Shown here one piece after another: positions 5,604 to 31,971 of a stretch of DNA of 32,266 nt. Source of the stretch: Candidatus Apopatocola equi (lineage in GTDB: Bacteria > Bacillota > Clostridia > Oscillospirales > Oscillospiraceae); assembly GCA_018065965.1 (NCBI GenBank), contig JAGHSH010000095.1, positions 1 to 32,266 on the forward strand. Direction: 5' to 3'. How positions within the stretch are numbered: position 1 is the first letter of the stretch; each line of letters begins with the position of its first letter. A model generated the notes under the pieces. That model ran no database searches and had not been told where the DNA came from. It was given only the letters and a program-made list of their open reading frames with translations. Both the position numbers and the translations under genes were made by a program.

Positions 5604-5625
5604 CTTGCGGAAGCCTCCGGCTGAT

Positions 5626-7635: not shown

Positions 7636-8070
7636 CTAGATCCCCCGCAGGCGTTCGAGAATGTCGGTATAGAGCCGGTTCAGATCCACGCCCGTGGAGG
7701 TGAGCATACGGGCGGCGGTGCAGTCCCCCTGCCGGAGGATGCCCATGAGCAGATGCTCCGTACCCACATAGCTCTGTCCCAGTCTGGCCGCATCTGCGGC
7801 GGCGAGCTCCACGGCGCGCTTGCAGCGGGGACTCAGTCCCTGCAGGGGTGCGCCGGGTGTGCCTCTGCCGTTTTCCTTTTCCAGCAGCTCCGCAAGGAAT
7901 GCCTCGTCCAGTCCCGCCGTGCGCAGTACCCTCGCGCCAAGTCCCTCACTCTCCCGGGCGATGCCCAGCAGCAGGTGCTCCGTGCCCACATAGCTGTGAC
8001 CGAATTCCCCGGCGCACTCCTGCGCCTTCTCAATGGCGGAGCGTGCCCGCTCAGTGAATTTATCGTTCAT
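7636..8070 (-). CDS. clpC: ClpC N-terminal double Clp_N repeat domain, ORF terminated by an in-frame TAG
   Basis: MNDKFTERARSAIEKAQECAGEFGHSYVGTEHLLLGIARE... with a second repeat LGQSYVGTEHLLMGILRQ. RBS AAAGGAGGGA lies upstream of ATG 8070. Confidence 0.85.
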   Translation of the reverse strand: MNDKFTERARSAIEKAQECAGEFGHSYVGTEHLLLGIARESEGLGARVLRTAGLDEAFLAELLEKENGRGTPGAPLQGLSPRCKRAVELAAADAARLGQSYVGTEHLLMGILRQGDCTAARMLTSTGVDLNRLYTDILERLRGI

Positions 8071-8136
8071 GTCCTGTCCCTCCTTTGCAAAAGGGGCGCG
8101 CCGTGCGCGCCCCGTGAACCGTCAGATATGCTTTGC

Positions 8137-8568
8137 TTATTCCTTCATCTTCTTCAGCGCATCCCGCAGCTCGATGGCCTTTTCATAGTCCTCCCGCGCC
8201 ACGGCGTCCTTCAGCTGCTGCTCCAGAATATTGCGCTCCCGGCGGGCCTTCAGCTCACTCTCGCAGCTCCGGGCGTTCTCCGTCTGCTGCTCCCCGCTCT
8301 GCTTCTGCTCCGCTTCGGCGCTGCGTGCGCCGAGGGTCATGGGCTGGCGGGTGAGGCCGAAGAAGCTCTCAAAGGGAGAGAAGAAATCCTCAAAGAAGCT
8401 CCGGCCGAAGCCGAAGGCCGGGCCAAAGTCAAAGCCCCGGGAGAAGCGCTCCTGCAGCCCCTCCTCCTTTGCGCACTCCTCGCAGAGACGGATCTCTCTG
8501 CTCACGCCGTTGACAGTTTCTCTATAATAGTAGTTCGCTTCGTTCTTACCGCATTTTCCGCACTTCAT
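8137..8568 (-). CDS. McsA-like UvrB/UvrC-motif protein (zinc finger plus UVR domain)
   Basis: N-terminal CGKCG...CEEC, an F/G-rich middle region, and a C-terminal UVR motif LKDAVAREDYEKAIELRDALKKM. It sits between ctsR and clpC. Confidence 0.75.
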   Translation of the reverse strand: MKCGKCGKNEANYYYRETVNGVSREIRLCEECAKEEGLQERFSRGFDFGPAFGFGRSFFEDFFSPFESFFGLTRQPMTLGARSAEAEQKQSGEQQTENARSCESELKARRERNILEQQLKDAVAREDYEKAIELRDALKKMKE

Positions 8569-8591
8569 TGTACATTCTCCTTTACAAAAAA

Positions 8592-9050
8592 TCAGTCGTT
8601 TATGGTCTGCAATAACATATACTTGAAAATGGAGGACCGCACCGTGTCCCGGATCTCCCGGGGCAGCGAATGGAGGGCATTGTCCCCGATGCCCGCAAGG
8701 ATGAGCCGGGCGTCCCGCTCGGCCAGCACCCCCTGATGCACCGCATTGCTCAGGAACGCCGCCGCTGTCCGGAGATCCAGACTGCCGCCCACGCTGTTGA
8801 TGGTATGCATGATCACGCTGCGGGGATCCGTCAGCTGCACGCGGCTGATGCGGATATAACCGCCGCCTCCCCGCCGGGATTCCACCACATAACCCCGCTC
8901 CGGGGAAAAGCGGGTGGAGATCACATAGTTGATCTGGCTGGGCACGCAGTTGAATTTGTCCGCCAGCACGCTCCGCTGCAGCTCGGCGCTGCCGTCCGAA
9001 TCCTCCAGTGCCTCCAGAATAAAGCTCGCTATCAGATCGCTGACCGCCAT
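8592..9050 (-). CDS. ctsR: CtsR class III stress-gene repressor
   Basis: KFNCVPSQINYVISTRFSPERGYVVESRRGGGGYIRISRV is the CtsR signature. Start taken as ATG 9050 with RBS AAAGGTGGAG; the track's GTG 9062 is less likely. Confidence 0.9.
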   Translation of the reverse strand: MAVSDLIASFILEALEDSDGSAELQRSVLADKFNCVPSQINYVISTRFSPERGYVVESRRGGGGYIRISRVQLTDPRSVIMHTINSVGGSLDLRTAAAFLSNAVHQGVLAERDARLILAGIGDNALHSLPREIRDTVRSSIFKYMLLQTIND

Positions 9051-9070
9051 TTGCTTCTCCACCTTTCGAA

Positions 9071-9093
9071 TTTGACTTTGACTTTCTTTGACC
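9071..9093 (-). promoter_or_regulatory. CtsR operator (tandem heptad)
   Basis: The minus strand reads GGTCAAA-GAA-AGTCAAA-GTCAAA, matching the A/GGTCAAA-NAN-A/GGTCAAA consensus. It lies just downstream of the -10 element. Confidence 0.8.
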
Positions 9094-9103
9094 TTTCGAG
9101 TGT

Positions 9104-9132
9104 ATTATAGTCAGGGAAAGTCAAAATGTCAA
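9104..9132 (-). promoter_or_regulatory. sigma-A promoter of the ctsR operon
   Basis: Minus strand: TTGACA (9132-9127), 17-nt spacer, TATAAT (9109-9104). Confidence 0.7.
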
Positions 9133-9224
9133 GTGGGAAAATTGTGAAGTTTTTGTGATTTCTCGCGTTTGTAATACCTTTTGCGCATGACCTCATATTT
9201 TTTTCTATTGCATAGAAAATGTAG

Positions 9225-9252
9225 TTGCAATTTACGCAAGATATGTTAGAAT
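9225..9252 (+). promoter_or_regulatory. promoter of the ferredoxin gene
   Basis: TTGCAA (9225-9230), 16-nt spacer ending in TGT, TAGAAT (9247-9252). Confidence 0.5.
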
Positions 9253-9282
9253 GCTGATAATTCCAGATAGGAGGTACATACA

Positions 9283-9450
9283 ATGTACGTTATCAATGAC
9301 AAGTGCGTTTCCTGCGGCACCTGCGCCGACAACTGCCCCAACGACGCCATCACCGAGGGCGCCGATCGCTACGAGATCAACCAGGACGACTGCGTTTCCT
9401 GCGGCACCTGCGTTGACAATTGCCCCAACGACGCCATCGAGGAGCAGTAA
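9283..9450 (+). CDS. 2x[4Fe-4S] clostridial-type ferredoxin (55 aa; below the ORF-track cutoff)
   Basis: Hand translation gives MYVINDKCVSCGTCADNCPNDAITEGADRYEINQDDCVSCGTCVDNCPNDAIEEQ*, with two CxxCxxCxxxCP motifs. RBS AGGAGG at 9269-9274. Confidence 0.9.
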   Translation: MYVINDKCVSCGTCADNCPNDAITEGADRYEINQDDCVSCGTCVDNCPNDAIEEQ

Positions 9451-9465
9451 TTCTGCCTTTTCGGT

Positions 9466-9506
9466 AAAAAAGATCCTGCCGTTTTCTTCGGCAGGGTCTT
9501 TTTTGT
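9466..9506 (+). terminator. rho-independent terminator of the ferredoxin gene
   Basis: Stem AAGATCCTGCCG (9470-9481) / CGGCAGGGTCTT (9489-9500), then a T-run. Confidence 0.8.
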
Positions 9507-9594
9507 TTTCTGCCCGGGATGCAGCCCGCCCCCCCTTCTGCACTGCCATGCGTTTTCCTGCATAGTTATGGGATGTCAGTCAGCCGTGCAGACT

Positions 9595-9624
9595 GCGCGC
9601 TCCGCAGGGACGTGCGCTTTTTTT
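9595..9624 (+). terminator. leader terminator/attenuator hairpin immediately upstream of the CDF gene
   Basis: GCGCGC (9595-9600) pairs with GTGCGC (9612-9617) and is followed by 7 T (9618-9624). This ends 17 nt before ATG 9642. A competing hairpin CTGCG/CGCAG (9593-9607) overlaps the 5' arm. Confidence 0.5.
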
Positions 9625-9641
9625 ATCGGGGGGGATCGGTC

Positions 9642-10538
9642 ATGAATGAGGAAACCATCATCCGGCGCGTTTCCGCGGTGGGGGTCGGGGGGAATATCCT
9701 GCTCTCGGCGATCAAGCTCTGGGCGGGCGTGGTCGGGAGATCCGCAGCGCTGGTTTCCGACGCCGTGCATTCCCTCAGCGATGTGTTGGCCAGCCTCACG
9801 GCATGGCTGGGGGTGCGGCTCGGCCGACGCCCGGCCGACGAGGGGCACCCCTACGGCCATGAGCGTTTTGAGTGTCTTGCCTCGCTGGCGCTGGGGCTGC
9901 TCCTCACCCTTACGGCGCTGGGCATCGGCCTGGGCGGCGTAAAAACGCTGCTAACCGGGGGCAGCAGCGCTTCGCCGGGGACGGCGGCACTGTGGGGCGC
10001 GGCCGTTTCCATCGCCGTGAAGGAGGCCATGTTCCGTTATGTGCGGCACTATGCCGGGGTGCTGGGCTCTTCCGCCTTTCTGGCCGACGCCTGGCACCAC
10101 CGCAGCGATGCGCTCTCCTCCGTGGGCTCTCTGCTGGGCGCGGCGGGGGCCATGGCGGGCTATCCCGCTCTGGACAGCGCCGCCTGCGTGGTCATCTGCC
10201 TTTTCATTCTCCGGCTCGCCCGGGATGTTCTCCGGGACGCACTCTCCAGGCTGCTGGACAGCTCCTGCGGTGCAGAGAAGGAGCAGGAGCTGTCGGACTT
10301 CATCGAGGCGCAGGAGGGCGTGATCGCGCTGGATCTGCTCCGCTCCCGGCGCTTCGGCGACAGGCTGTATCTGGACGCGGAGATCGCCGTGGACGCAGAG
10401 CAGAGTCTTGCCGAGGCGCACTGCGTCGCCGAGGCCGTCCATGACGCGGTGGAGCGCCGCTTCCCGGAGGTCAAGCATATCATGATCCACGAAAATCCTG
10501 CCGCCGGAACGGTCGGGAGCCGCGCTTTTCCCCCTTGA
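9642..10538 (+). CDS. cation diffusion facilitator (CDF) family metal exporter
   Basis: Start moved to ATG 9642 (MNEETIIRRVSAVGVGGNILLS). HSLSD and HHRSD metal-site motifs are present, along with a C-terminal cytoplasmic domain. Confidence 0.85.
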   Translation: MNEETIIRRVSAVGVGGNILLSAIKLWAGVVGRSAALVSDAVHSLSDVLASLTAWLGVRLGRRPADEGHPYGHERFECLASLALGLLLTLTALGIGLGGVKTLLTGGSSASPGTAALWGAAVSIAVKEAMFRYVRHYAGVLGSSAFLADAWHHRSDALSSVGSLLGAAGAMAGYPALDSAACVVICLFILRLARDVLRDALSRLLDSSCGAEKEQELSDFIEAQEGVIALDLLRSRRFGDRLYLDAEIAVDAEQSLAEAHCVAEAVHDAVERRFPEVKHIMIHENPAAGTVGSRAFPP

Positions 10539-10563
10539 CAGGCGCCTTCTTTCGTGCTATATT
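10535..10563 (+). promoter_or_regulatory. sigma-A promoter driving the glycine riboswitch leader
   Basis: TTGACA (10535-10540), 17-nt spacer, TATATT (10558-10563). Confidence 0.6.
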
Positions 10564-10592
10564 AGCTCAAAATGTTGAATAAGTCGGTTGAT

Positions 10593-10757
10593 GCAAGGAA
10601 GAGACTGCCCTCCGGGGCAGACCGATGGGGCAAGCCCGACCCTGCCGAGGTCGGGGGAATCTTTCAGGTACAGACATCCCTTGCGGACGAAGCTCTGGAG
10701 AGTGCCGCTGCGGCGGCCACCGAAGAAGATCAAACTTTCAGGTTGAAGAAACAGAGG
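10593..10757 (+). promoter_or_regulatory. tandem glycine riboswitch (two aptamers)
   Basis: Aptamer 1: GGAAGAGAC...ACCGATGGGGCAA...TCTTTCAGGTACAGACATCC, with P1 GCAAGG/CCCTTGC. Aptamer 2: CTCTGGAGAGTG...CACCGAAGAAGATCAA...ACTTTCAGGTTGAAGAAACAGAGG. Both closely parallel my recollection of the B. subtilis gcvT leader. Confidence 0.85.
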
Positions 10758-10804
10758 ATATGCAGGCAGCTTATTTGCTGCGCGCATATCCTCTTTTTTA
10801 TTTT
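10754..10804 (+). terminator. riboswitch expression-platform terminator
   Basis: Stem GAGGATATGCAGGCAGC / GCTGCGCGCATATCCTC, then TTTTTTATTTT. Its 5' arm overlaps the 3' strand of aptamer-2 P1. Confidence 0.8.
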
Positions 10805-10830
10805 GAAAACACAAAGGGAGCTGAAAGAAA

Positions 10831-12153
10831 ATGAACGAAGACAATACCCTGAAAAAGGAACTGGGTGCGGCCACTGCCACCTCGCTGGTAGTAGGCTGCG
10901 TCATCGGCGCGGGCGTGTTCTTCAAGCCCTACGCCATTTATCAGGCCACCGGAGGCGCTCCGGGCATGGGCATTCTCTCTTGGGTGCTCGGCGGCCTCAT
11001 CAGCATTTTCGCCGCGCTGACCTTCGCCGAGGTGGCGGTGCTGATCCCCCGCACGGGCGGCATGGTCGAGTATCTGGGCGAGGTCTACGGCCGCCGTCTG
11101 GGCTTTCTGGCCGGCTGGATGCAGGTGGTCATCTTCTACCCCGCCTATCTGGCAGGCTACGGCGTAAAGGTCGGCAGCGAGCTGAGCGCCTATGTGGGCG
11201 AGCGCTTCGCCCTGCCCATCGGCATTCTGGTCATCGCCGCGCTGGTGCTGCTCAATGCCCGCGGCGTCCGCTCCGCCGGCGGTATGCAGCTTGTTTCCAC
11301 CGTCTGCAAGCTCATCCCGCTGGGTCTGCTGATCCTCTTCGGCTTCCTCCGAGGCGGCAGCAGCGCCTCCGTGCTCGACCGGCTTGTGGGCGACGGAAAA
11401 AGCGTCGGCAGCGTCACGGTCACCACCCTGCTGGCCGTGCTTTTTGCCTTTGAGGGCTGGACGAACGTGGGCACCATCGCCGGAGAGATGAAGAACCCCG
11501 GCCGCGACCTGCCCCGGGCCATCGTGGGCGGCGTGAGCATTATCATGGCCGTGTATCTGGGCATCAACCTTGCCTATCTCCGGGTGATCCCGGCCAGCGA
11601 GCTGATGAATCTGCCCTCCCCCGCCCATGCGGTGGCCACGAAGCTCTTCGGTGAGGCCGGCGGCACCCTCATCCGCGTGGGCATCATCATCTCCGTGATC
11701 GGCGCGGGCAACGGTTTTCTTATGTCCGGCAGCCGCGTGGCCTATCAGCTGGGTGTGCAGGGTATGCTCCCCGGCAGCAAGGCTCTCTCCCGTCTCAACA
11801 GCCGGGGCGTGCCTGCCAACGCCATTTATCTGGTGGGCGGTCTGGCCTGCCTCTACTCCCTCAGCGGCGAATTTGACCTGCTGACCGATCTGGGCACCTT
11901 TGCCTGCTGGGTCTTCTACACGCTCACCTTCTGCTGCGTCATCACCCTGCGGAAGCAGCGTCCCGATGCGGAGCGGAAATACAAGGTGCCCGGCTATCCC
12001 GTGATCCCCGCTCTGGCCATCCTCAGCGGCGTGTATGTGATCATCTCCCAGCTCTTCCTGTCCGGCGCCCGGGGGCTTGTGATGTCCCTCTGCTCCGTGG
12101 GCATCACCGCGCTGGGTCTGCCCGTTTACGCCCTGAGCGTCAAGCAGAAATGA
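10831..12153 (+). CDS. APC-superfamily amino acid permease (glycine-regulated)
   Basis: 440-aa protein with about 12 TM segments. The N-terminus LGAATATSLVVGCVIGAGVFFKP is typical of the APC family. RBS AAGGGAG lies upstream of ATG 10831. Confidence 0.85.
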   Translation: MNEDNTLKKELGAATATSLVVGCVIGAGVFFKPYAIYQATGGAPGMGILSWVLGGLISIFAALTFAEVAVLIPRTGGMVEYLGEVYGRRLGFLAGWMQVVIFYPAYLAGYGVKVGSELSAYVGERFALPIGILVIAALVLLNARGVRSAGGMQLVSTVCKLIPLGLLILFGFLRGGSSASVLDRLVGDGKSVGSVTVTTLLAVLFAFEGWTNVGTIAGEMKNPGRDLPRAIVGGVSIIMAVYLGINLAYLRVIPASELMNLPSPAHAVATKLFGEAGGTLIRVGIIISVIGAGNGFLMSGSRVAYQLGVQGMLPGSKALSRLNSRGVPANAIYLVGGLACLYSLSGEFDLLTDLGTFACWVFYTLTFCCVITLRKQRPDAERKYKVPGYPVIPALAILSGVYVIISQLFLSGARGLVMSLCSVGITALGLPVYALSVKQK

Positions 12154-12169
12154 TTTTCCCCATTCCGAG

Positions 12170-12215
12170 AAAAGACGGCAGCCCGTTTTGCCACGGGTGG
12201 ATAAGGAAGTATTTT
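12170..12215. repeat. left arm of a 46-bp imperfect inverted repeat
   Basis: AAAAGACGGCAGCCCGTTTTGCCACGGGTGGATAAGGAAGTATTTT matches the reverse complement of 12902-12947 at 42 of 46 positions. Confidence 0.9.
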
Positions 12216-12336
12216 CCCGTTTATTCTTTTCCTTCCTATGAGGTGTTAGGGGCTTGCCCTTAAATAATAAGCCGATGTTAATCTGCTTTGAGCGGAAAAA
12301 TATATCATTTTTCCCTGCTTGATACCGAATGAGACA

Positions 12337-12384
12337 AAACCACCTACCGAAAGAGATGATTACTCTTTTTCGGCAGGTGGTTTT
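12337..12384. terminator. long hairpin / bidirectional terminator downstream of the WapI-like gene
   Basis: Stem AAAACCACCTACCGAAAGAG (12337-12356) / CTCTTTTTCGGCAGGTGGTTTT (12363-12384). Confidence 0.6.
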
Positions 12385-12419
12385 CAGTTTAACAAAAGGG
12401 TATTTGTTTGTGCGATCTG

Positions 12420-12824
12420 TTAATTATCTGCGAATTGGTGTAATTCTGAAATAAAGCGCAAAAGCGCGGTCTGATCAGCTTCAAATTCAAATTTCAGTTC
12501 ATGTATCATTGCTTCTCCGAAGATATCTCCGCTGATTCTAATATGCCCAATATTATCAGCCGAAAAATGCAGCATTCCTCCGTATCCGATTTCTTGGATT
12601 CCAGCTTCTTTTGCTTTGAACTCGTACATTTTCTTAAGCTCATTTGTAAAATCGATTAGATTGCGCATATCAAATTCGCATGGTGAAACACCCATAAAAC
12701 CATTTGATTTCACTTTGATCTTAACTGTACAGTTATACGGATTTCCTCTTTCCGTTTCTTCGGGGTAAAAACGCAAGTCATCGAATTCTATATAATTTTC
12801 ACCAAACTCCAAAAGAGCATTCAT
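12420..12824 (-). CDS. WapI-like polymorphic-toxin immunity protein candidate (134 aa)
   Basis: Low GC. Start set at ATG 12824 (RBS GGGAG), because the track's 12929 start lies inside the inverted repeat. The overall pattern (YNCTVKIKVKS...F.GVS...LKFEFEADQTALLRFISEL) resembles the WapI immunity family as I recall it. Needs an HMM check. Confidence 0.5.
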   Translation of the reverse strand: MNALLEFGENYIEFDDLRFYPEETERGNPYNCTVKIKVKSNGFMGVSPCEFDMRNLIDFTNELKKMYEFKAKEAGIQEIGYGGMLHFSADNIGHIRISGDIFGEAMIHELKFEFEADQTALLRFISELHQFADN

Positions 12825-12901
12825 GTTTTTTCTCCCATTCAAAACCGGCTTGTCTTTATCATACAGGGGCATCAGATTTTTCCATACACCAAAAAACACA
12901 T

Positions 12902-12947
12902 AAAATACTTCCTTATCCACCTGTGGCATTACAGGCTGCCGTCTTTT
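12902..12947. repeat. right arm of the 46-bp imperfect inverted repeat
   Basis: The reverse complement reads AAAAGACGGCAGCCTGTAATGCCACAGGTGGATAAGGAAGTATTTT. Confidence 0.9.
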
Positions 12948-13019
12948 TAATTTAGATGTCAGCCCGGCGATCCGGGGCAGCAGGGTCGGTTCAGGTCGGC
13001 AGACCGCAGAAAACCGGTA

Positions 13020-14078
13020 TCAAGGAGAATCGCTCTCGGGCAGTATAGTGATCTCCTTAATTACACGCGACAGCGGGTAATAGCGGATGTGCAGTCGGTC
13101 GCCCGGCGTGAGCTTGCCCCGGCAGAGCGGCTCAAAGAGGAACAGCCGCTTTTTTCGTCCGTCTTCCCCTTGCAGAAGTATCCATTTGCATCTCACCTTC
13201 AAGGCGGCGAGGCAGAAGGTGATGAACACATCCTTTTTATATTCGATTTGCGTCAGTTCTCTTTCATTGCCGATTATTCCGTCCACGATCAGGAGCAAGC
13301 CGCGCAAAATTTCATGGAAAAACAGCATGACGCTCATAAAGCTGACCCAAGCTGCGCTGGCAATCAACCCGGCGGCATAAAGTTTGCGAATAAGCAGGAA
13401 CAGCAATACGCTCACCACCACCGCACCGCGGCGTGAGCGGCGCATCAGGCGCTCCGAATCCCAGGAGCGGGATTGCCTCCCGGGCTTCGATTCCCAACGC
13501 CACCCGCCGCAGTAACGGAGCAGCTCCGGCAGTTCGGTTTCGGGGTCAAGGTAAAGAGTGATCACTTTGTTTCCAATGTCTGCAATGTTTATGGCTATTT
13601 GACTTTCAAAATATCCTTTGGGAATATAGCGTCTGACCAGTTTTATTTCGGGATATTGCGTTACTTGTTCTGCAAACATTTCGCGCGTTCTTTTCAAGAT
13701 CCTGTCACTGTTTTCCGGATGCGATTCACGAATATAGTGGAAAGAATCCCAGGGGAAAAGCCGTGAACGTCCCAAACGGAAGATTCGAATTCCCTCCGCA
13801 CTGATTTCAAAGCGATCGAACAGTAGTTGAAACGTCCCTTCTATTGCTTCTGATATCATATGGGTATACAATAGGCAGAACATAGCAAGAGGAACTGCGA
13901 GGTAAATGAATTCATCATCTTCGCGCGGAGCATTGAGACCAAGATAAGCATAGAAAGGAATTGCTGCAATCATGATGCAAAAACAAGAAACTGCAGAAAG
14001 AACTATATACCTTCTGTATCTTTTTGTCATGTTGTTTCGGTTGTAGATCACCATTTTCCCGGTTTCTATGGAGTTCAC
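13020..14078 (-). CDS. multi-pass membrane protein of unknown function (compositionally chimeric)
   Basis: 352-aa ORF with TM helices near residues 25-75 and 215-270. The 5' half (about 13560-14078) is low GC and the 3' half is host-like GC. Start is GTG 14078 (RBS AAAGGA) or ATG 14054. Confidence 0.55.
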   Translation of the reverse strand: MNSIETGKMVIYNRNNMTKRYRRYIVLSAVSCFCIMIAAIPFYAYLGLNAPREDDEFIYLAVPLAMFCLLYTHMISEAIEGTFQLLFDRFEISAEGIRIFRLGRSRLFPWDSFHYIRESHPENSDRILKRTREMFAEQVTQYPEIKLVRRYIPKGYFESQIAINIADIGNKVITLYLDPETELPELLRYCGGWRWESKPGRQSRSWDSERLMRRSRRGAVVVSVLLFLLIRKLYAAGLIASAAWVSFMSVMLFFHEILRGLLLIVDGIIGNERELTQIEYKKDVFITFCLAALKVRCKWILLQGEDGRKKRLFLFEPLCRGKLTPGDRLHIRYYPLSRVIKEITILPESDSP

Positions 14079-14459
14079 GGTTTTACATCCTTTCTATTAC
14101 TAAACGAACCCGTCCGGTACTGTTTCCACGTCCGGTGCTGCTTCTAATGCCGACAGTTGACGAAACGGAGGGAGAAAGCGAGGAAGAATTAACGGTGCTC
14201 AGCGTTCCCTGTTTGCGGTGTGCAAGGCAGGTTTCCTCCGCCATGAATAATATGCATCCGCGCTTATATGGTTGCAGGTGCAGCAAAACTTTTGCGCATC
14301 TATTATGCTCGTGTACGTGAATGCCTCCGATCTTTAGAAATGCAGGAGTCACTGTCTGCGTAACCTCAAATTTAACTGTTTATGAAGTATTTACAAATGC
14401 TCTTTTGCACGGGCAAGTGTTGCCAACATCATTCCTGAAACCTTTAAGGGCTTGGGATT

Positions 14460-14508
14460 ATCCCAACGAACTGCCTTTTGTCCCCAAAAGGCGATGCTTG
14501 CCGGTACG
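14460..14508. repeat. 49-bp direct repeat, copy A (contains an 8-bp-stem hairpin)
   Basis: ATCCCAACGAACTGCCTTTTGTCCCCAAAAGGCGATGCTTGCCGGTACG matches 16051-16099 at 48 of 49 positions. It ends 2 nt from the stop codon of the 14511-14912 gene. Confidence 0.95.
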
Positions 14509-14510
14509 AT

Positions 14511-14912
14511 TCAGGCTTCTATCGCTACCATTATTCCTTCTAACAATTTATGCACTTCGGAATGCAGGATTTCTTCTTTGATTAGTGCAGGTTTATCGCA
14601 CTGTTTCCATACGCTATCGATTTTCCAATATTGATTATGTTGAGGCGAGAACACAAGTATGGGCTCTGTGTGTTCAACCGTAGAATAAACAAATTGATCC
14701 GCATTCCCTGTAAGATATCTGCGATACCAGTTAACTAAATACCAATAAAATTCAATAATAGCAACTTCTTCTGAAAATAGGATTTGATTATTGTAGGTAA
14801 CAGTCAAATCAGCCTCCCAAAGCAAATAACCATATATCTCATCAAGAGACATCCTAGAATAGGGTGCTCTAGGAGGTTGTTGTCCTAAAAAATCAATGTT
14901 AATCGTGAACAT
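14511..14912 (-). CDS. hypothetical protein (133 aa), immunity-like by context
   Basis: Low-GC ORF 70 nt downstream of the DUF4259-like gene on the same strand. RBS GGAGG lies upstream of ATG 14912. No motif recognised. Confidence 0.55.
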   Translation of the reverse strand: MFTINIDFLGQQPPRAPYSRMSLDEIYGYLLWEADLTVTYNNQILFSEEVAIIEFYWYLVNWYRRYLTGNADQFVYSTVEHTEPILVFSPQHNQYWKIDSVWKQCDKPALIKEEILHSEVHKLLEGIMVAIEA

Positions 14913-14982
14913 ATGTACCTCCTTAAGTTACTGGGGGAAAAAGGTAATAATTTTAGGAAGGATATTGCCATCCGGAAAAATT

Positions 14983-15936
14983 CTAAATGTTTTTATTTGT
15001 GTAAATACTGAGTTCCCTTAGATTGTGCCCACAATACCGCTTAATCATTTTTGTTTCAAATGTTTCATCGAATTGTTTCCATGATACAGACACAATATTT
15101 TCTTTTGAATGAGGAACAAATTCTTTTTGTGGATGAACAGTATTCGCAAAGTTACCTACGTAGATCAAATTTGTAGGAATAACTCTTTTTGAAGTATTAA
15201 GCAATTTCGCTCTATACTGCGGCAAAAAACCATATTCATCTACTTGATAGTTTATCTTAGATTTTTCGGCAATATCTTCTTGCGGACGTCTCATATCAAT
15301 TGGCAAAAAACGATCCTCGTACTTTGTGAACCATGTCTGGACATATTCCAATTGGTTATATTCTTCTGCGTTTGATGGAAGATTGTTATCATTGGTTATT
15401 TTCACATATACAATTGGTACTATGTGCCCAGGATGCCATACACCTTCATCAACCTTTTGGAGCAAAAAATACCGACCATAAAGACCTCTTTCTTTTGCTA
15501 AGTCGCTTTCCAATTGGTAGGCAAAAACATCTCCCAATTTCCATTGACATTTGTATATTCTCTTTTTTACTGGTTTTTTCACTGGAGGTTGCGGAGAAAG
15601 AAGTTTTGCTTGCAACTCATCAAGAATTTTTCTTCTTTTCGCTTTTACTGACATATCTATTGACCGACAATAAAACATACCACTGTCTTTTTCAACCCAG
15701 TAAAGAGCTTTTTCCTTAACCCAAGGCATAAGCACTCCCAGATTCCATTGTGTATCCGCCAATGCCAACCAAAACAACGGTTCTTCGTCAATGTCGCCCA
15801 TTATGCTTTTATAATCTTCCGTCAATTTGTCGGTGATATCTTGGACAGTATTTCCAGTATTATACAATTCTTCAAATTCATCTTTAACATCTAGTGACGT
15901 ATCGTTTTGATATAACTCAAATCCCCACATTCCCAT
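14983..15936 (-). CDS. DUF4259-like immunity-family protein with an extra C-terminal domain (317 aa)
   Basis: The N-terminus MGMWGFELYQNDTSLDVKDEF...PLFWLALADTQW resembles the MGxWGxGxFxND start of DUF4259, a predicted polymorphic-toxin immunity family. RBS GGAGGTG lies upstream. Confidence 0.6.
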   Translation of the reverse strand: MGMWGFELYQNDTSLDVKDEFEELYNTGNTVQDITDKLTEDYKSIMGDIDEEPLFWLALADTQWNLGVLMPWVKEKALYWVEKDSGMFYCRSIDMSVKAKRRKILDELQAKLLSPQPPVKKPVKKRIYKCQWKLGDVFAYQLESDLAKERGLYGRYFLLQKVDEGVWHPGHIVPIVYVKITNDNNLPSNAEEYNQLEYVQTWFTKYEDRFLPIDMRRPQEDIAEKSKINYQVDEYGFLPQYRAKLLNTSKRVIPTNLIYVGNFANTVHPQKEFVPHSKENIVSVSWKQFDETFETKMIKRYCGHNLRELSIYTNKNI

Positions 15937-16050
15937 TTATATCACCTCCAAATCAATTTCCAGTCCAATACAAAATCTCGTTGGACATTTGATTCCATCC
16001 GTAGTTCAAAGTGCCTAAAGCCAGTTCTTTAAACGCGCCCCAATATTTTA

Positions 16051-16099
16051 ATCCCAACGAACTGCCTTTTGTCCCCAAAAGGCGATGCTTGCTGGTACG
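16051..16099. repeat. 49-bp direct repeat, copy B
   Basis: Same sequence as 14460-14508 with one C/T difference. It ends 12 nt from the stop codon of the 16112-16603 gene. Confidence 0.95.
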
Positions 16100-16111
16100 T
16101 GTCATTCTAAA

Positions 16112-16603
16112 CTAGGTTGTTTCACAATCAACAAAGTTCTTGTATCTAGTTCCACATTTGTTGCACTCAAGTGTTATCCATATCCAAGTAAAAGCATTAT
16201 CTGTTTCGGTTATTTCAAGTTCCGCAAGTTCTTGAATATCAGGATATTCATATTTGATACCAACAGAAAATACTCTATTTCGGCATTTACTGCAATCAAT
16301 AGGTTTAGTTTGTACATGTGTATATTGCTCTTTTCCACATTGCTCATACCCATCACAACTGCTATCAAATACTGAGATAACTTTACCACACTTTCTGCAA
16401 CGAGCTTCTATTACAGTTTTGTCATTTTCTGGAAACAAGCACATTTTTGAAAACATACTGTGTTTTATTTCTCCAACAACAAACACTTCAAAATCATGGG
16501 CATTACAGCATGTAAGTATTCCTTCAATTATGCTGTTATCGCCTTCCTTTGGTTGATGTGTCATTTTAAAATGCGGTTGAACTTTTTTAGGAATCAATTT
16601 CAT
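16112..16603 (-). CDS. Cys-rich (zinc-ribbon-like) hypothetical protein, immunity candidate (163 aa)
   Basis: Cysteine motifs CRKCG, CDGYEQC, CSKCR and CNKCG. RBS AAGGGGGG lies immediately upstream of ATG 16603. It directly follows the toxin-tail ORF. Confidence 0.6.
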   Translation of the reverse strand: MKLIPKKVQPHFKMTHQPKEGDNSIIEGILTCCNAHDFEVFVVGEIKHSMFSKMCLFPENDKTVIEARCRKCGKVISVFDSSCDGYEQCGKEQYTHVQTKPIDCSKCRNRVFSVGIKYEYPDIQELAELEITETDNAFTWIWITLECNKCGTRYKNFVDCETT

Positions 16604-16609
16604 CCCCCC

Positions 16610-16744
16610 TTATTCAAACAATCTTCTAACCCAATTTACAATCTTTCCAACAGACCCCGAATTGTTTGAACGCATGTTGGACATCTTGTTAATAATATAA
16701 TTTGTGCTTTGTCTTGGACTCACAACTTCTACTAACTTATTCAT
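16610..16744 (-). CDS. 44-aa low-GC ORF, probable residual C-terminal tail of a displaced toxin domain
   Basis: Hand translation gives MNKLVEVVSPRQSTNYIINKMSNMRSNNSGSVGKIVNWVRRLFE*. Its ATG overlaps the TGA of the RHS fragment, and it ends 6 nt before the next gene's ATG. Confidence 0.3.
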   Translation of the reverse strand: MNKLVEVVSPRQSTNYIINKMSNMRSNNSGSVGKIVNWVRRLFE

Positions 16745-17052
16745 ACCGTATAGAATCCTGTCTCACTGTCGTAGTAATACCCCCGGTAGCGGAGCGGGTT
16801 CCGGGCGGTCACATCGGCGTCATATCCCCCGGTGGTGAGGATGTTGCCCCAGGCGTCATAGGTGTAGGTCGCTGCCTCGCTGCCCTCGCAGTCCAGCACC
16901 GCCATAATGTCGCCCTGCTGGTTCTTCACATAGGTGTACTCGCCGTAGGCCTCGCCGAGATACCGTTTGAAACCGAGAACATCCCCGTTCTGGTCATAGC
17001 GGCCGTGCGCCCGAAGCCGTCATACGTGAAGTGCTTTTTCAGGTTGACTGTA
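16741..17052 (-). pseudogene. RHS/YD-repeat core fragment, frameshifted and truncated at both ends
   Basis: One frame gives LKKHFTYDGFGR; the other gives GRYDQNGDVLGFKRYLGEAYGEYTYVKNQQGDIMAVLDCEGSEAATYTYDAWGNILTT...NPLRYRGYYYDSETGFY, then TV*. It lacks the YYxxxRYYDPxxGRF / DPxGL end of an RHS core. GC is host-like. Confidence 0.8.
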
Positions 17053-17059
17053 CTATGGC

Positions 17060-17536
17060 TCAGATCATTTTCTTGAAGTAGGAACAAGCGCTTCTCTCGT
17101 CCGAAGACATCGGCCCAAAGTGCGGCAGATCAAAAAGCACTTTAACATTGATCCAATCTAAAGGAACGCTAACAAGTTTTTTTCTGGTTGAATACTCATA
17201 CAATTGTATGTGGTAAGTCCGAGATCCCCATGGGATAATCAGAATCCATCGTACGGTACCCCTTGGATACTGCTTTACGCGACCAAAAGTGCCATAAAGA
17301 AATACTGAGTCTTGAGAAAGGATAATTTTCCATTGATAATAACGCAATATCATATGAAGCATTGCATATAGCAACGGAACGACAATAAACACAATATAAT
17401 AAAGAACATACCTGAAATCATCCGCACCCCAACCAATTGCTCCCATAAGTAAAAACAAGAGTAAAGCAAGCGCAAGGTACTTTATATCTTTTCCACTGGC
17501 ACGCACCACTTCATACTGCTTCATCTGCATAGACAT
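17060..17536 (-). CDS. two-TM membrane protein (YdbS/bPH-like architecture), immunity candidate
   Basis: Two N-terminal TM helices are followed by a beta-rich soluble part. The start overlaps the upstream ORF's stop (ATG 17536, or ATGA at 17521-17524). Confidence 0.55.
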   Translation of the reverse strand: MSMQMKQYEVVRASGKDIKYLALALLLFLLMGAIGWGADDFRYVLYYIVFIVVPLLYAMLHMILRYYQWKIILSQDSVFLYGTFGRVKQYPRGTVRWILIIPWGSRTYHIQLYEYSTRKKLVSVPLDWINVKVLFDLPHFGPMSSDERSACSYFKKMI

Positions 17537-17874
17537 TGTACCACTACCGTATTTCCAGTATTTCCAACGACAGACCCAAGAAAGTATTTGCCAGTCGTTA
17601 TTAGACTTTCAAGAGCATAAACTCTTTCAAAGTTTTGAGCAGCTTGTTTTACTGCTTTCCTTGCTGTTGACCCAACAAACTTCATTCCGCTCTTAGAAGC
17701 TTCGATTATTTCATTCAGTTGACCTGTTGCCTTTACGAGATTGCCTTTAGAACGACGAATACCATTGCCTCCAATCAATCCACTAACGAATCCCGCACCG
17801 GCTCCGTCTCTCTCCACCACGCGCGTCAGCCTGTTACCTGTATCATAATAGAAACGCTGAGAAGATGCAAGGGT
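17521..17874 (-). pseudogene. YD-repeat fragment fused to an unrecognised ~95-aa low-GC C-terminal domain (orphan toxin tip candidate)
   Basis: The frame is open from 17874: TLASSQRFYYDTGNRLTRVVERDG (host GC), then AGAGFVSGLIGGNGIRRSKGNLVKATGQLNEIIEASKSGMKFVG... (low GC). The only start codon is GTG 17820 and it has no RBS. Confidence 0.55.
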
Positions 17875-17902
17875 TCAGCCCCGGAAAAGAGCGTTGTCCA
17901 CG

Positions 17903-17935
17903 CAAAAACCCGCCGCCCTGCGGGCAGCGGGTTTC
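17903..17935 (-). terminator. terminator of the ZIP transporter gene
   Basis: Minus strand: AAACCCGC...GCGGGTTT stem followed by TTTTT (plus-strand A-run 17904-17908). Confidence 0.7.
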
Positions 17936-17957
17936 GCCTTATCGTTTTTTCGCGGGC

Positions 17958-18812
17958 TCACACATATACCAGCAGCAGGCCGGTCAGCGTCCCCACCAGT
18001 GCCATGGCGCCGGGAGCCTTGCTCCGCCAGCTCAGGAAGCTCTCGGGGAAAAGCTCACCGAAGACCACATAGAGCATCGCGCCGCCGGCAAAGCTCAGCG
18101 CCAGCGAGAGCCACACCGGGGAGATCAGACCCAGCGAGTAGCCCAGAGCCGCACCGAGAATGGTGGGGGCGCCGCTGAGCGCCGTGATGCCGATGGCCTT
18201 CCACTTGTTCATACCGCCGGAGATCAGCGGCACGGAGACCGCCATACCCTCGGGGATATTATGCAGACCGATGACCAGAGCGATCACAAAGCCGGAGCCC
18301 TGGGTGACCGCGCCGGGATTGCCCGCATAGGTCGCGCCGATGACCATGCCCTCGGGCATATTGTGCAGGGCGATGGCCGTGGCCATCACCAGTCCGGCCA
18401 CGAACAGACCCGAGCGGGGATCGGTCTCCTTGTGCATATTATAGTGATCCGCATGGATCAGCTCATCCAGTGCATCGGCAGTCTGCGGATGGTTCTCGTC
18501 GATGTGCTTGAGCTCCGGGTTGGTGGCCGCGTCGATCATCCGGTTCAAAGCCGCCACCAGCGCATAGCCTGTCGCCACGCCGCCGATAACGAACCAGACG
18601 GGAAAGCTCTCGCGGGCCCCCTCCGGCTGAAAGGCATCCGGAATCAGATCGAAGCACACCACCGCCATCATCACGCCCCCGGCAAAGGCCAGCAGCAGGG
18701 AGATGACCTTGGAGGAATCCCGGCGCAGCACCGCGCCCACATAACCGCCCAGACCCGTACCGCCTACGCCCGCTATCGCCGTGATCGCAATGATCCATCC
18801 CAGTGCGTTCAT
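17958..18812 (-). CDS. zupT: ZIP family (ZupT-like) metal transporter
   Basis: Start moved to ATG 18812 (MNALGWIIAITAIAGVGG; RBS GGGAG). ZIP signatures HNMPEG and HNIPEG are present. Confidence 0.85.
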   Translation of the reverse strand: MNALGWIIAITAIAGVGGTGLGGYVGAVLRRDSSKVISLLLAFAGGVMMAVVCFDLIPDAFQPEGARESFPVWFVIGGVATGYALVAALNRMIDAATNPELKHIDENHPQTADALDELIHADHYNMHKETDPRSGLFVAGLVMATAIALHNMPEGMVIGATYAGNPGAVTQGSGFVIALVIGLHNIPEGMAVSVPLISGGMNKWKAIGITALSGAPTILGAALGYSLGLISPVWLSLALSFAGGAMLYVVFGELFPESFLSWRSKAPGAMALVGTLTGLLLVYV

Positions 18813-31069: not shown

Positions 31070-31145
<76 letters not shown>

Positions 31146-31150
31146 GTTGG

Positions 31151-31191
31151 AGTGGATGTAACTGATTTCAGTTACATCCACTTTGTTTTTT
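31151..31191 (+). terminator. tRNA terminator
   Basis: Stem AGTGGATGTAACT (31151-31163) / AGTTACATCCACT (31170-31182), then a T-rich run. Confidence 0.8.
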
Positions 31192-31202
31192 ACCCAAAAG
31201 TA

Positions 31203-31231: not shown

Positions 31232-31291
31232 ACAATGATTTAGCGAGAAACGCTGAATGGGTGGCATGGGCGAAGAAGAAAGGATTATAAT

Positions 31292-31948: not shown

Positions 31949-31971
31949 ATTATCTTATGTACAGAGCAGGT

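What the first reader, a model, noticed from the sequence alone, without database searches (positions are those of the whole stretch)
12154..17940. Low-GC 5.7-kb island looks like an array of orphan RHS/YD toxin remnants plus immunity-like genes, with no full-length toxin
Between the permease stop (12153) and the zupT terminator (~17935), GC falls from over 60% to roughly 35-45%, and every ORF is on the minus strand. Two short host-GC segments encode YD/RHS motifs (QRFYYDTGNRLTRVVERDG at 17800-17874; FTYDGFGR...YTYVKNQQGDIMAVLD...YTYDAWGN...NPLRYRGYYYDSETGFY at 16741-17052). Each switches abruptly to low-GC sequence and is followed by a small tightly coupled ORF, which is the layout of displaced toxin tips with cognate immunity genes. 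Other ORFs resemble immunity families (DUF4259-like N-terminus; WapI-like). The window contains no RHS shell or N-terminus, no secretion genes and no integrase. The locus therefore looks like an immunity or silent-cassette reservoir, and most of its proteins match nothing I recognise.
Basis: partly seen in the sequence, partly recalled or inferred. Interest (0 to 1): 0.75.

Follow-up and report, generated by a model that had tools for sequence, protein, structure and literature searches.

The report
Toxin-less RHS immunity gene island
This Clostridia strain has only scraps left of the RHS contact toxin that a sister strain still carries intact at the same site, but it keeps six intact antidote (immunity) genes gathered from other bacteria, one riding on a tiny jumping element; this is a known kind of defensive island whose origin is unusually easy to read here.

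Summary
Window 12154-17940 is a low-GC block (0.30-0.47, against above 0.6 in the flanks) with every gene on the minus strand. Its two host-GC patches are real RHS fragments.

A sister-strain contig (L214) is 98.5-99% identical in both flanks. At this exact site, between zupT and the permease, it carries an intact 1978-aa RHS toxin followed by an immunity gene. The window's fragments are 96-99% identical pieces of that gene, so this rhs gene was broken up where it stood.

No toxin domain survives. Only C-terminal stubs remain, of about 91, 44, 31 and 8 codons. Each stub lies directly upstream of an intact gene that follows the full-length version of that toxin in other metagenomes.

The island is therefore a heterogeneous polyimmunity locus derived from an rhs array, not a reservoir of usable toxin tips.

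Two extras were found:
- The WapI-like gene sits on a 740-bp cassette with 27-bp terminal inverted repeats. The cassette occurs in six genomic contexts, four clearly inside terminator hairpin loops.
- A repeat element, about 125 nt when complete and absent from Rfam, punctuates clostridial RHS arrays and marks one strain-to-strain exchange boundary here.

Protection is inferred, not shown.

The parts
17874..17900 (-). 27-nt filler between the zupT terminator and RHS fragment A. It replaces about 4.2 kb (promoter plus codons 1 to about 1345 of rhs) present in the sister strain.
   Evidence: Junction alignment with L214. The filler is absent from L214.
17795..17873 (-). RHS fragment A, a YD-repeat piece equal to codons ~1346-1372 of the sister strain's rhs.
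   Evidence: 96% identical to L214 4773-4851. Peptide QRFYYDTGNRLTRVVERDG.
17521..17794 (-). Toxin stub 1. This is the last ~91 codons of a ~190-aa Gly/Ala-rich C-terminal toxin domain, fused in frame to fragment A at the microhomology GGAGCCGGTGC.
   Evidence: Nine remote relatives; in the ones shown, the match lies at the C-terminal end of the protein, and several are 330-360-aa orphan RHS proteins with an RHS core (P0123, P0125). Junction seen. The word-indexed search found only the query itself.
17060..17536 (-). o158, a 158-aa protein with hydrophobic N-terminal segments. Candidate immunity protein for the stub-1 toxin family.
   Evidence: The 164-aa ORF directly after the P0123 toxin in L213 is 27% identical over 106 aa (E 7e-5). 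Both give a weak DUF6560 match. 100% identical in L088.
17003..17052 (-). Short RHS piece (HFTYDGFGRTAA), matching codons ~1421-1432 of the sister rhs. It joins fragment B out of frame through an internal deletion of ~210 codons.
16750..17002 (-). RHS fragment B, equal to codons ~1643-1726 of the sister rhs. It ends 32 positions into the 76-position RHS-associated core domain.
   Evidence: 99% identical to L214 5662-5914. TIGR03696 positions 1-32 of 76. RHS_repeat E 2.9e-4.
16610..16749 (-). Toxin stub 2 (the 44-aa ORF). This is the last ~45 codons of a toxin domain of unknown type.
   Evidence: 96% identical to residues 304-348 of the 348-aa orphan RHS toxin in L116 and 78% to the one in L165.
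16112..16603 (-). o163, a 163-aa cysteine-rich protein with several CxxC pairs. Candidate immunity protein for the stub-2 toxin.
   Evidence: Relatives of 87% and 73% identity lie directly after that toxin in L116 and L165. Only weak zinc-ribbon matches.
16049..16108 (-). Repeat element, copy 2. Only the left 60 nt are present, cut where stub 3 begins.
   Evidence: 54-nt direct repeat at 94%. nhmmer E 2e-17. Alignment.
15953..16048 (-). Toxin stub 3. This is the last 31 codons of a GIY-YIG-type RHS toxin domain (KYWGAFKELALGTLNYGWNQMSNEILYWTGN*).
   Evidence: Matches the end of the 331-aa orphan toxin in L082 and the full RHS in L089 (89-93% at nucleotide level). GIY-YIG matches: L214's toxin E 1e-4, 23.0 bits against a cut-off of 22.6; L082's orphan E 6e-4, 20.5 bits, below cut-off.
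14983..15936 (-). o317, a 317-aa candidate immunity protein for GIY-YIG-type RHS toxins.
   Evidence: 828 relatives at 74-98% identity. It directly follows the toxin in L082, L083 and L089 and sits in the RHS array of L085. 40% identical to the 272-aa gene after the sister strain's toxin.
14928..14954 (-). Toxin stub 4. This is the last 8 codons (KIITFFPQ*) of the toxin that precedes DUF7878 genes elsewhere.
   Evidence: Compared with the toxin ends ...AGKIITFFPQ* in L171 and L110.
14511..14912 (-). o133, a DUF7878 protein and candidate immunity protein.
   Evidence: PF25297, E 2.3e-22. Relatives lie directly after RHS toxins in L171 and L110 and in an RHS context in L208. The o317-o133-element order is also seen in L090.
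14424..14516 (-). Repeat element, copy 1. The left arm and middle are present and the right arm is degenerate. Near-identity with the sister strain resumes inside this copy (up to 14506).
   Evidence: nhmmer E 6.5e-26. The shared block 12929-14506 equals L214 7547-9123 at 98.5%. A promoter-like GGGACA-16-TG-GATAAT site lies inside it.
14079..14423 (-). Non-coding spacer or scar, shared with the sister strain. Another strain (L217) has a 159-aa gene inserted here.
13020..14078 (-). o352, a hydrophobic, probably membrane protein of up to 352 aa (start codon uncertain). It is a resident array gene of unknown partner.
   Evidence: Four database entries are related to it, one of them near-identical (99%). 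It is found in RHS arrays in L214 (99%) and L215 (52%). No Pfam family.
12189..12928 (-). 740-bp non-autonomous mobile cassette with 27-bp terminal inverted repeats (12189-12215 and 12902-12928). It carries the WapI-like gene (12420 to 12824 or 12929) and its own terminator hairpin (12336-12384).
   Evidence: PF24716, E 2.7e-8. The sister strain has the empty site. The same cassette at ~97% identity occurs in five other sequence contexts.
12170..12947 (.). Host bidirectional terminator hairpin between o352 and the permease, split by the cassette. Its arms are 12170-12188 and 12929-12947, and the loop is TGTAAAC in the sister strain.
   Evidence: 46-nt inverted repeat, 91% complementary. Junction sequences.

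Best explanation
**What it is.** The island is a decayed rhs toxin locus that now works as a toxin-less, heterogeneous polyimmunity locus.

**Shown: how it arose.**
- The ancestral state survives in a sister strain: zupT, a full-length RHS toxin with a GIY-YIG-type tip and a probable Sec signal peptide, its 272-aa immunity gene, a repeat element, o352, then the permease.
- In this strain at least four deletions or replacements removed the promoter, about 1,345 N-terminal codons and the toxin tip. Three small RHS fragments remain.
- Foreign low-GC toxin-immunity modules were joined in, and every toxin was cut down to a C-terminal stub of about 91, 44, 31 or 8 codons.
- The gene after each stub is intact.
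- A sixth immunity-type gene (WapI-like) arrived separately on a 740-bp cassette with terminal inverted repeats. It inserted into the loop of the o352/permease terminator.

**Inferred: how it works.**
- The six proteins would neutralise matching RHS toxins delivered by neighbouring Clostridia, including kin such as the sister strain's lineage. Soluble proteins would bind nuclease-type tips, and membrane proteins would block membrane-acting tips.
- Expression would have to come from internal promoters, for example the promoter-like site in the repeat element, or from read-through. The cassette gene would be transcribed from o352, because the insertion separates the two arms of the terminator.
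- The cell gains protection without the cost or self-risk of making a toxin.
For: **Sister strain.**
- L214 is 98.5-99.2% identical across zupT (window 17901-18515), across 12929-14506 and across 6128-12188.
- It carries a 1978-aa RHS plus a 272-aa gene where the window has the island.
- Window fragments A and B are 96% and 99% identical to internal parts of that gene, and the junctions were read base by base.

**Toxin stubs and their partner genes.**
- Stub 3 with o317: the pair is intact in L082, L083 and L089.
- Stub 2 with o163: intact in L116 and L165.
- Stub 4 with DUF7878: intact in L171 and L110.
- Stub 1 with o158: the toxin family was found by exhaustive search, and the gene after it in L213 is a relative of o158.

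**Immunity-type families.** WapI and DUF7878 pass Pfam cut-offs. o317 is 40% identical to the sister strain's post-toxin gene.

**Intactness.** Six of six post-toxin genes are full length compared with relatives. None of the four toxin domains is.

**Mobile cassette.** Empty site in L214. Six contexts, four clearly inside terminator loops, flanked by ..AA|AAA...

**Not an artefact.** Independent contigs span the junctions.

**Fit to the literature.** The locus fits the published definition of heterogeneous polyimmunity loci that vary between strains (PMC3482391).
Against: - There is no expression or protection data.
- The rhs promoter region is deleted and zupT ends in a strong terminator, so transcription of the upstream half is unproven.
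- The immunity role of o317, o163, o158 and o133 rests on conserved gene order, not on a tested family.
- o352 has no linked toxin and may be something else.
- PDB sequence searches and a fold search of o317 gave nothing.
- The rest of this genome was not available. A full-length rhs gene with matching tips could exist elsewhere, which would make these ordinary self-protection genes.
- The direction of change (window derived, L214 ancestral) is the simplest reading but is not proven.
Confidence: 0.72

Rival explanations
1. Silent toxin-cassette reservoir. The stubs would be stored toxin tips that recombination with a full-length rhs gene elsewhere could switch into expression, as with orphan rhs modules in Salmonella.
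For: Fragment B keeps 253 nt of 99% rhs homology that could serve as a recombination arm. Arrays of complete orphan tips do exist in related loci such as L085, L146 and L215. Orphan activation is documented in PMC3967940.
Against: All four toxin domains lack their N-terminal parts, and the two adjoining RHS fragments stop before the DPxGxW boundary. Recombination in the RHS arm would yield a truncated, out-of-context tip. Stubs 3 and 4 have no RHS arm at all.
Confidence: 0.06
2. Inert graveyard. The whole island, immunity genes included, would be unexpressed decaying DNA left by the collapse of an rhs locus, with no present function.
For: The promoter is deleted. There are several scars, a frame break and filler DNA. 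Both copies of the repeat element are incomplete. No function has been tested.
Against: The pattern is selective: six of six post-toxin genes are intact and none of the four toxin domains is. The genes are 98.7-100% conserved in independent samples. An immunity cassette was gained at a site that is still empty in a strain 98.7% identical in the flanks. Promoter-like sites are present.
Confidence: 0.18
3. Assembly chimera. The low-GC block would have been wrongly joined to a high-GC chromosome during metagenome binning or assembly.
For: There are sharp GC changes. Short-read contigs break at the repeat element (L088 ends at 16063, and L090 starts and ends inside element copies).
Against: L088 spans zupT to the element. 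L090 spans element-stub-o317-o133-element. L217 and L218 span element-o352-cassette. L221 spans o352-cassette-permease. L214 independently shows an rhs locus at this site.
Confidence: 0.02
4. Anti-phage defence island or toxin-antitoxin modules, not interbacterial immunity.
For: Low-GC accessory islands of small genes between core genes often hold defence systems. Rhs elements have been reported to behave as type II TA modules (PMC7043789).
Against: No PADLOC family matched any of the seven island proteins scanned. No intact toxin partner is present. Every gene is tied by context to RHS toxin tips.
Confidence: 0.02

Closest known systems
rhs loci with orphan toxin-immunity modules (Salmonella, Serratia, E. 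coli, Dickeya; B. subtilis WapA/WapI)
   Same: RHS/YD-shell toxin with a polymorphic C-terminal tip, followed by its immunity gene. Low-GC tips and immunity genes lie next to a host-GC shell. Further modules follow downstream. Content differs between strains (PMC3150448, PMC3967940, PMC10539506).
   Different: Here the main gene is destroyed and no module keeps a usable tip. Classical orphans keep a piece of the core plus a complete tip. The sister strain's toxin appears to be Sec-exported (WapA-like), not T6SS- or T7SS-linked.
Heterogeneous polyimmunity loci (Zhang et al. 2012, PMC3482391)
   Same: Four or more unrelated immunity-type genes in one orientation, with no intact toxin among them, variable between strains of one species, and proposed to act as a pre-emptive backup against others' toxins.
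   Different: Toxin stubs and RHS fragments still sit between the genes, so the origin from an rhs array can be read directly. Spacers are longer (70-430 nt) than in typical tight arrays. No recombinase is adjacent.
Acquired interbacterial defence clusters AID-1 and rAID-1 of gut Bacteroidales (Ross et al., bioRxiv 10.1101/471110)
   Same: Arrays of orphan immunity genes in gut bacteria, with skewed GC, horizontal spread and repetitive intergenic sequences.
   Different: Different phylum and toxin delivery route (RHS of Clostridia, not T6SS). There is no XerD-type recombinase in the window and the repeat element is unrelated. This island sits at a decayed toxin locus, not on an identified mobile element.
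Mobile insertion cassettes and MITEs with passenger genes (own knowledge: e.g. MIC231 of Bacillus cereus)
   Same: The 740-bp unit has terminal inverted repeats, no transposase and one passenger gene. It occurs at many genomic sites.
   Different: The passenger is an immunity-type gene. Insertions lie in loops of intrinsic terminators, with an apparent 2-bp AA duplication. No matching autonomous element was found.

Membership tests
RHS/YD polymorphic toxin gene | Full-length protein: export signal, YD-repeat shell, RHS-associated core and C-terminal toxin | tested here: not met
   Only three fragments are present, of about 27, 12 and 84 codons. The core match stops at position 32 of 76. The feature is met in the sister strain L214 (1978 aa).
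RHS/YD polymorphic toxin gene | Sequence belongs to the RHS repeat and core families | tested here: met
   HMM matches are just below threshold, but the fragments are 96-99% identical at nucleotide level to a bona fide RHS gene with TEN_YD-shell and RHS_repeat hits.
Orphan rhs toxin-immunity module | Partial core joined to a complete toxin tip, followed by an immunity gene | tested here: not met
   The tips are cut to about 91, 44, 31 and 8 codons compared with full versions in P0123, L116, L082/L089 and L171. Immunity genes are present.
Heterogeneous polyimmunity locus | Four or more unrelated immunity genes in tandem, in the same orientation, with no intact toxin gene between them | tested here: met
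   Six genes on the minus strand, with no detected sequence relationship among them in family scans and only toxin stubs between them. The immunity role of four is inferred from context, and o352 has no toxin link.
Heterogeneous polyimmunity locus | [quoted passage not shown] | tested here: met
   L214 (intact rhs, no cassette), L217 (an extra 159-aa gene) and the window differ, while the shared DNA is 98.5-99% identical.
rAID-1 system | Conserved XerD-family recombinase next to the array | tested here: not met
   No recombinase or integrase domain in any sizeable ORF of the 32-kb window.
rAID-1 system | Repetitive intergenic sequences between cassettes | tested here: inconclusive
   Two incomplete copies of one element in the window. 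The element recurs between cassettes in other arrays (L185 has seven nhmmer hits). Its sequence is unrelated to what was described for Bacteroidales.
Integron | intI integrase, attI, and attC sites after each cassette | tested here: not met
   No integrase. The element does lie just 3' of cassette genes and is bounded by inverted repeats. Match to the attC consensus was not tested.
WapI-like immunity family (PF24716) | Match above Pfam's gathering score | tested here: met
   34.6 bits against a cut-off of 27, E 2.7e-8, residues 55-165. Binding to a WapA-type toxin cannot be tested here.
DUF4259 | Match above Pfam's gathering score | tested here: not met
   o317 scores 16.9 bits against a cut-off of 22.8, over the first 40 residues only. 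The sister strain's 272-aa relative scores 20.5 bits.
DUF7878 (PF25297) | Match above Pfam's gathering score | tested here: met
   79.7 bits against a cut-off of 25.
Mobile insertion cassette / MITE | Terminal inverted repeats, no transposase, and the same unit in unrelated genomic sites with an empty site known | tested here: met
   27-bp repeats with one mismatch. 740 bp carrying one gene. Six contexts at about 97% identity. Empty site in L214.
Mobile insertion cassette / MITE | A cognate autonomous element with the same ends that supplies the transposase | not testable with these tools
   The ends were not found in viral contigs or plasmids.

The most novel reading that the evidence does not exclude
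Clostridial RHS arrays may be organised and exchanged through two dedicated DNA devices that have not been described.

**1. A structured repeat of about 125 nt.**
- It is bounded by the inverted repeats ACCRGCAAGCATCGCC...GGCGATGCTTGCYGGT.
- It sits directly after immunity genes and before the next orphan module.
- Its left ~45 nt are also found about 400 nt upstream of NikA/MobC-relaxase operons, the usual place of an origin of transfer.
- It could be the 3' anchor for swapping toxin-immunity cassettes, or a relaxase-recognised site that lets arrays be mobilised or recombined.
- In this window it marks the point where identity with the sister strain resumes.

**2. A 740-bp cassette.** It carries an immunity gene into the loops of intrinsic terminators. 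There it would be transcribed from the host gene upstream, and the terminator would re-form behind it.
Probability: 0.3. Interest if true: 0.75.

Novelty: new member of a known kind. Interest (0 to 1): 0.5.

Why it matters
The locus gives a natural before-and-after pair. One strain is armed with an RHS toxin. A strain about 99% identical in the flanks has lost the weapon but holds antidotes of six kinds, four linked by gene order to foreign toxin types. This supports the idea that polyimmunity loci can arise when toxin arrays collapse, and that gut and rumen Clostridia exchange immunity genes across hosts whose flanking DNA ranges from 43% to 63% GC.

It also yields testable toxin-immunity pairings for protein families with no known function: the 317-aa family with GIY-YIG tips, DUF7878, a cysteine-rich 163-aa family, and a membrane protein with a glycine-rich tip.

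If the repeat element and the terminator-loop cassette prove to be active recombination or transposition devices, they would explain how such arrays are built in Gram-positive gut bacteria.

Tried and rejected
- **Exact look-ups of zupT and the permease:** not on record, probably because of start-codon choice.
- **Permease-based search of 185,579 species genomes:** 80 loci at 79% identity or less. None has zupT or any island gene nearby, so it was no use for synteny, and it consumed the only genome scan.
- **PADLOC:** no defence family.
- **NCBIfam:** nothing beyond the RHS core fragment.
- **Word-indexed search of toxin stub 1:** found only itself. The exhaustive search was needed.
- **Rfam on the island and on seven loci with complete repeat elements:** no credible family match; the only hit was a sub-threshold chance match elsewhere in the island.
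- **RNAalifold on 36 complete elements:** stems are predicted, but only 2 pairs show compensatory change. RNA structure is therefore neither shown nor excluded.
- **Plasmid database:** no match for the cassette or for a relaxase-context element.
- **Viral contigs:** no match for the cassette ends.
- **Literature search for the element's sequence:** nothing relevant.
- **PDB sequence searches of four island proteins:** nothing.
- **AlphaFold2 model of o317:** mean pLDDT 62, with only the N-terminal helical part confident. Foldseek gave no match with E below 0.2.
- **Idea rejected:** that the 46-nt inverted repeat around the WapI-like gene is an invertible switch. It is a split host terminator plus the cassette's own 27-bp ends.
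- **Idea rejected:** that the frame break in fragment B is a sequencing error. It is a deletion junction, and L088 shows the same sequence.

Full report
**1.

- GC is 0.30-0.47 in most 100-nt bins between about 12200 and 17800. It is 0.59-0.70 in the flanks.
- Short host-GC patches lie at 16800-17000 and 17800-17900.
- All credible ORFs are on the minus strand:
  - o169 (12420-12929)
  - o352 (13020-14078)
  - o133 (14511-14912)
  - o317 (14983-15936)
  - o163 (16112-16603)
  - a 44-aa ORF (16610-16744)
  - two RHS-like ORF pieces (16741-17087)
  - o158 (17060-17536)
  - a 99-aa ORF (17521-17820), whose frame stays open up to 17877
Fragment B changes frame near 17000.
- Pfam results:
  - WapI for o169: E 2.7e-8, above the cut-off.
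  - DUF7878 for o133: E 2.3e-22.
  - A DUF4259 match below threshold on the first 40 residues of o317.
  - RHS_repeat just under the cut-off for fragment B.
- NCBIfam places the end of fragment B on positions 1-32 of the 76-position RHS-associated core.
- The rest of the window is housekeeping, with no secretion, integrase or transposase gene. It holds an LRR protein, a transglutaminase/SLH protein, MatE, ctsR-mcsA-clpC, a CDF transporter, an amino-acid permease, ZupT, DUF6591, sulfite reductase, MFS, Tex, a HerA-like ATPase, hydantoinase, SpoVT and tRNA-Met.

**2. The decisive comparison: a sister strain**

A search with o352 returned four database entries related to it, one of them near-identical. 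One of them sits on a 15.9-kb contig, L214. L214 matches the window as follows.

| L214 | Window | Identity |
|---|---|---|
| 1-615 (zupT end) | 17901-18515 | 99.2% |
| 7547-9123 | 12929-14506 | 98.5% |
| 9122-15181 (permease to clpC) | 6128-12188 | 98.7% |

- Between zupT and the permease, L214 carries:
  - a 1978-aa RHS protein (DUF6531, TEN_YD-shell and RHS_repeat hits);
  - a 272-aa gene;
  - one copy of a repeat element;
  - a 340-nt spacer;
  - o352.
- The window's fragment A (17795-17873) is 96% identical to nt 4773-4851 of that rhs gene.
- Fragment B (16750-17002) is 99% identical to nt 5662-5914.
- The short HFTYDGFGRTAA piece matches codons ~1421-1432.
- The interval is therefore accessory and differs between strains.
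- The RHS fragments are the wreck of the resident main gene. Reading the junctions:
  - About 4.2 kb (promoter plus about 1,345 codons) is replaced by 27 nt of filler.
  - Fragment A runs into foreign low-GC DNA at the shared string GGAGCCGGTGC.
  - An internal deletion of about 210 codons causes the frame break.
  - Fragment B ends at ...GGATTCTAT, inside the core motif YYDSETGFY.
- The sister RHS begins MKTTTWKRLTCLLLALLMMLQLTYLPEATAYA. By inspection this looks like a Sec signal peptide, as in B. subtilis WapA. The lack of secretion genes nearby is therefore not informative.

**3. What follows each RHS fragment is a toxin stub**

- **Stub 3.** Window 15953-16048 encodes KYWGAFKELALGTLNYGWNQMSNEILYWTGN*.
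  - This is the last 31 residues of the toxin tip of the 331-aa orphan RHS in L082/L083 and of a full RHS in L089. The matching nucleotide stretch, which also covers o317, is 89-93% identical.
  - The tip gives a GIY-YIG match (E 6e-4 in L082, below the cut-off; E 1e-4 in L214, just above it).
  - In all these loci the next gene is the o317 relative.
- **Stub 2.** The 44-aa ORF is 96% identical to residues 304-348 of the 348-aa orphan toxin in L116. There, and in L165, the next gene is the o163 relative (87% and 73%).
- **Stub 4.** Window 14928-14954 encodes KIITFFPQ*. These are the last eight residues of the toxins that precede DUF7878 genes in L171 and L110.
- **Stub 1.** This stub has no close relatives. 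An exhaustive HMMER search found nine.
  - In the ones shown, the match is at the C-terminal end of the protein. Several are 330-360-aa orphan RHS proteins with core motifs such as NPLRYRGYYYDSETGFYYLQSRYYDP.
  - Their tips are about 190 aa and rich in Gly and Ala. The window keeps only the second half.
  - The 164-aa gene after one of them (L213) is 27% identical to o158 and shares its hydrophobic N-terminus.

None of the four toxin domains is complete. The six downstream genes are all full length compared with their relatives.

**4. Interpretation**

- The locus fits the published definition of a heterogeneous polyimmunity locus (PMC3482391). It has several unrelated immunity-type genes in one orientation, no intact toxin, and content that varies between strains.
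- It also resembles the orphan immunity arrays of gut Bacteroidales (bioRxiv 10.1101/471110) and orphan immunity genes at rhs loci of Proteobacteria.
- What it adds is a readable history. An armed locus in one strain corresponds to a disarmed, immunity-only locus in a near-identical strain. The foreign immunity genes are still tagged by scraps of their toxins.
- o317 is 40% identical to the sister strain's 272-aa post-toxin gene. It is thus a different allele of the same immunity family, paired with a different allele of the GIY-YIG tip.
- Cassette genes are low in GC (about 0.35) wherever they occur. Their hosts' flanking DNA ranges from 0.43 to 0.63 GC. This points to wide horizontal exchange.
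- Protection itself, and expression, are inferred. The rhs promoter is gone and zupT has a strong terminator. Transcription must come from internal promoter-like sites or from read-through.

**5. The WapI-like gene arrived by a different route**

- The 46-nt inverted repeat around it has two parts: 19 nt of host terminator arm and a 27-nt terminal inverted repeat, TGCCAC(A/G)GGTGGATAAGGAAGTATTTT.
- In L214 the site is empty. It is a hairpin, GACGGCAGCC-TGTAAAC-GGGCTGCCGTC, followed by a run of T.
- In the window a 740-bp unit sits in the loop between TGTAA and AAAC. This implies a 2-bp AA duplication.
- The same unit, about 97% identical, occurs in five other sequence contexts (L216, L219, L222, L223, L224).
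  - In three of them the flanks are again the two arms of a terminator-like hairpin with a T-run, and all show ..AA|AAA.. junctions.
  - L223 shows only the left flank, and L224 shows no clear stem.
- The unit has no transposase. It is a mobile insertion cassette carrying an immunity-type gene.
- Splitting the hairpin arms should let transcription from the upstream host gene enter the cassette. The arms plus the cassette ends could pair again behind it. This step is inference.

**6. A repeat element in the arrays**

- A 54-nt direct repeat (14460-14513 and 16051-16104, 94%) lies just after the stop codons of o133 and o163.
- Its invariant 22-mer occurs in at least 120 metagenome stretches.
- Of 126 copies, 58 are in RHS contexts and 24 are upstream of relaxase genes. 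The other 44 are on contigs too short to classify.
- In RHS contexts the element typically ends 9-65 nt after a small gene, and an RHS fragment starts 60-440 nt downstream.
- Genes just upstream include known immunity families: Imm-NTF2-2, Barstar, DUF2019, DUF5071 and DUF7878.
- The relaxases are PF03432 proteins, often with NikA- or MobC-like genes between them and the element.
- In RHS arrays the complete element is about 125 nt.
  - It is bounded by the inverted repeats ACCRGCAAGCATCGCC...GGCGATGCTTGCYGGT.
  - 45 of 106 assessable copies have the right arm at a fixed distance of 102-118 nt. None of the relaxase-context copies does.
- It contains three internal hairpins, one with a few compensatory changes.
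- It recurs between cassettes in some arrays, with seven nhmmer hits in L185.
- It matches no Rfam family.
- Both window copies are incomplete.
- Copy 1 is where near-identity with the sister strain resumes. A second strain polymorphism, the 159-aa gene of L217, starts a little beyond it.
- Whether it is a recombination anchor, a derivative of an origin of transfer, a promoter cassette or a selfish repeat is open.

**7. Verdict**

The idea of a reservoir of usable toxin tips is not.
- The island is a new member of a known kind: a polyimmunity or orphan-immunity locus at an rhs site.
- It is well documented by a natural armed/disarmed strain pair.
- It carries two side findings that may be new and deserve follow-up: the terminator-loop immunity cassette and the array-associated repeat element.

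Noticed in passing
window 14424-14516 and 16049-16108; complete copies e.g. L135:6365-6495, L112:934-1064, L146:10982-11115: A repeat element of about 125 nt, bounded by inverted repeats and holding three internal hairpins, is specific to clostridial RHS toxin-immunity arrays. Its left ~45 nt also lie about 400 nt upstream of NikA/MobC-relaxase operons. It matches no Rfam family.
   Followed up: partly
window 12189-12928; also L216:1758-2492, L219:1038-1772, L222:343-1077, L224:124-858: A 740-bp cassette with 27-bp terminal inverted repeats carries a WapI-like gene. It is inserted in the loops of intrinsic terminator hairpins in several unrelated genomic contexts, and no transposase partner was found.
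   Followed up: partly
L203:4069-4259: Four tandem fragments of 29-32 nt, each matching the element's first hairpin, lie next to an RHS fragment (two at 35-nt spacing; a fifth fragment lies further upstream). This suggests local amplification of that hairpin.
   Followed up: no
window 7636-7638 (minus strand): clpC is split by an in-frame stop into a 144-aa Clp_N piece (7636-8070) and a 618-aa AAA piece (5626-7482). The sister-strain contig reads through with no indel. This could be a pseudogene, a sequencing error or a strain difference.
   Followed up: partly
window 31070-32266: tRNA-Met (31070-31145) is followed by low-GC DNA (0.39-0.42) to the end of the window, including a 218-aa ORF with no Pfam match. 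This may be the edge of another island integrated at the tRNA.
   Followed up: no
window 5605-8736 (+ strand): The longest ORF in the window (1043 aa, no Pfam match) is a shadow ORF antisense to clpC/mcsA in this high-GC DNA. It is not a gene.
   Followed up: yes
L217:131-610 and L146:10501-10980: A family of 159-aa proteins (MYEQISIIYEPCD...) is another cassette gene found next to the repeat element. It is present in one strain variant of this island and absent from the window.
   Followed up: no
L112, L135, L189, L204 (137 nt after the element's 22-mer): Several orphan modules in other metagenomes begin their RHS homology at the position matching codon ~1640 of the sister rhs. This is the same point where the window's fragment B starts, which hints at a preferred module boundary.
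   Followed up: partly
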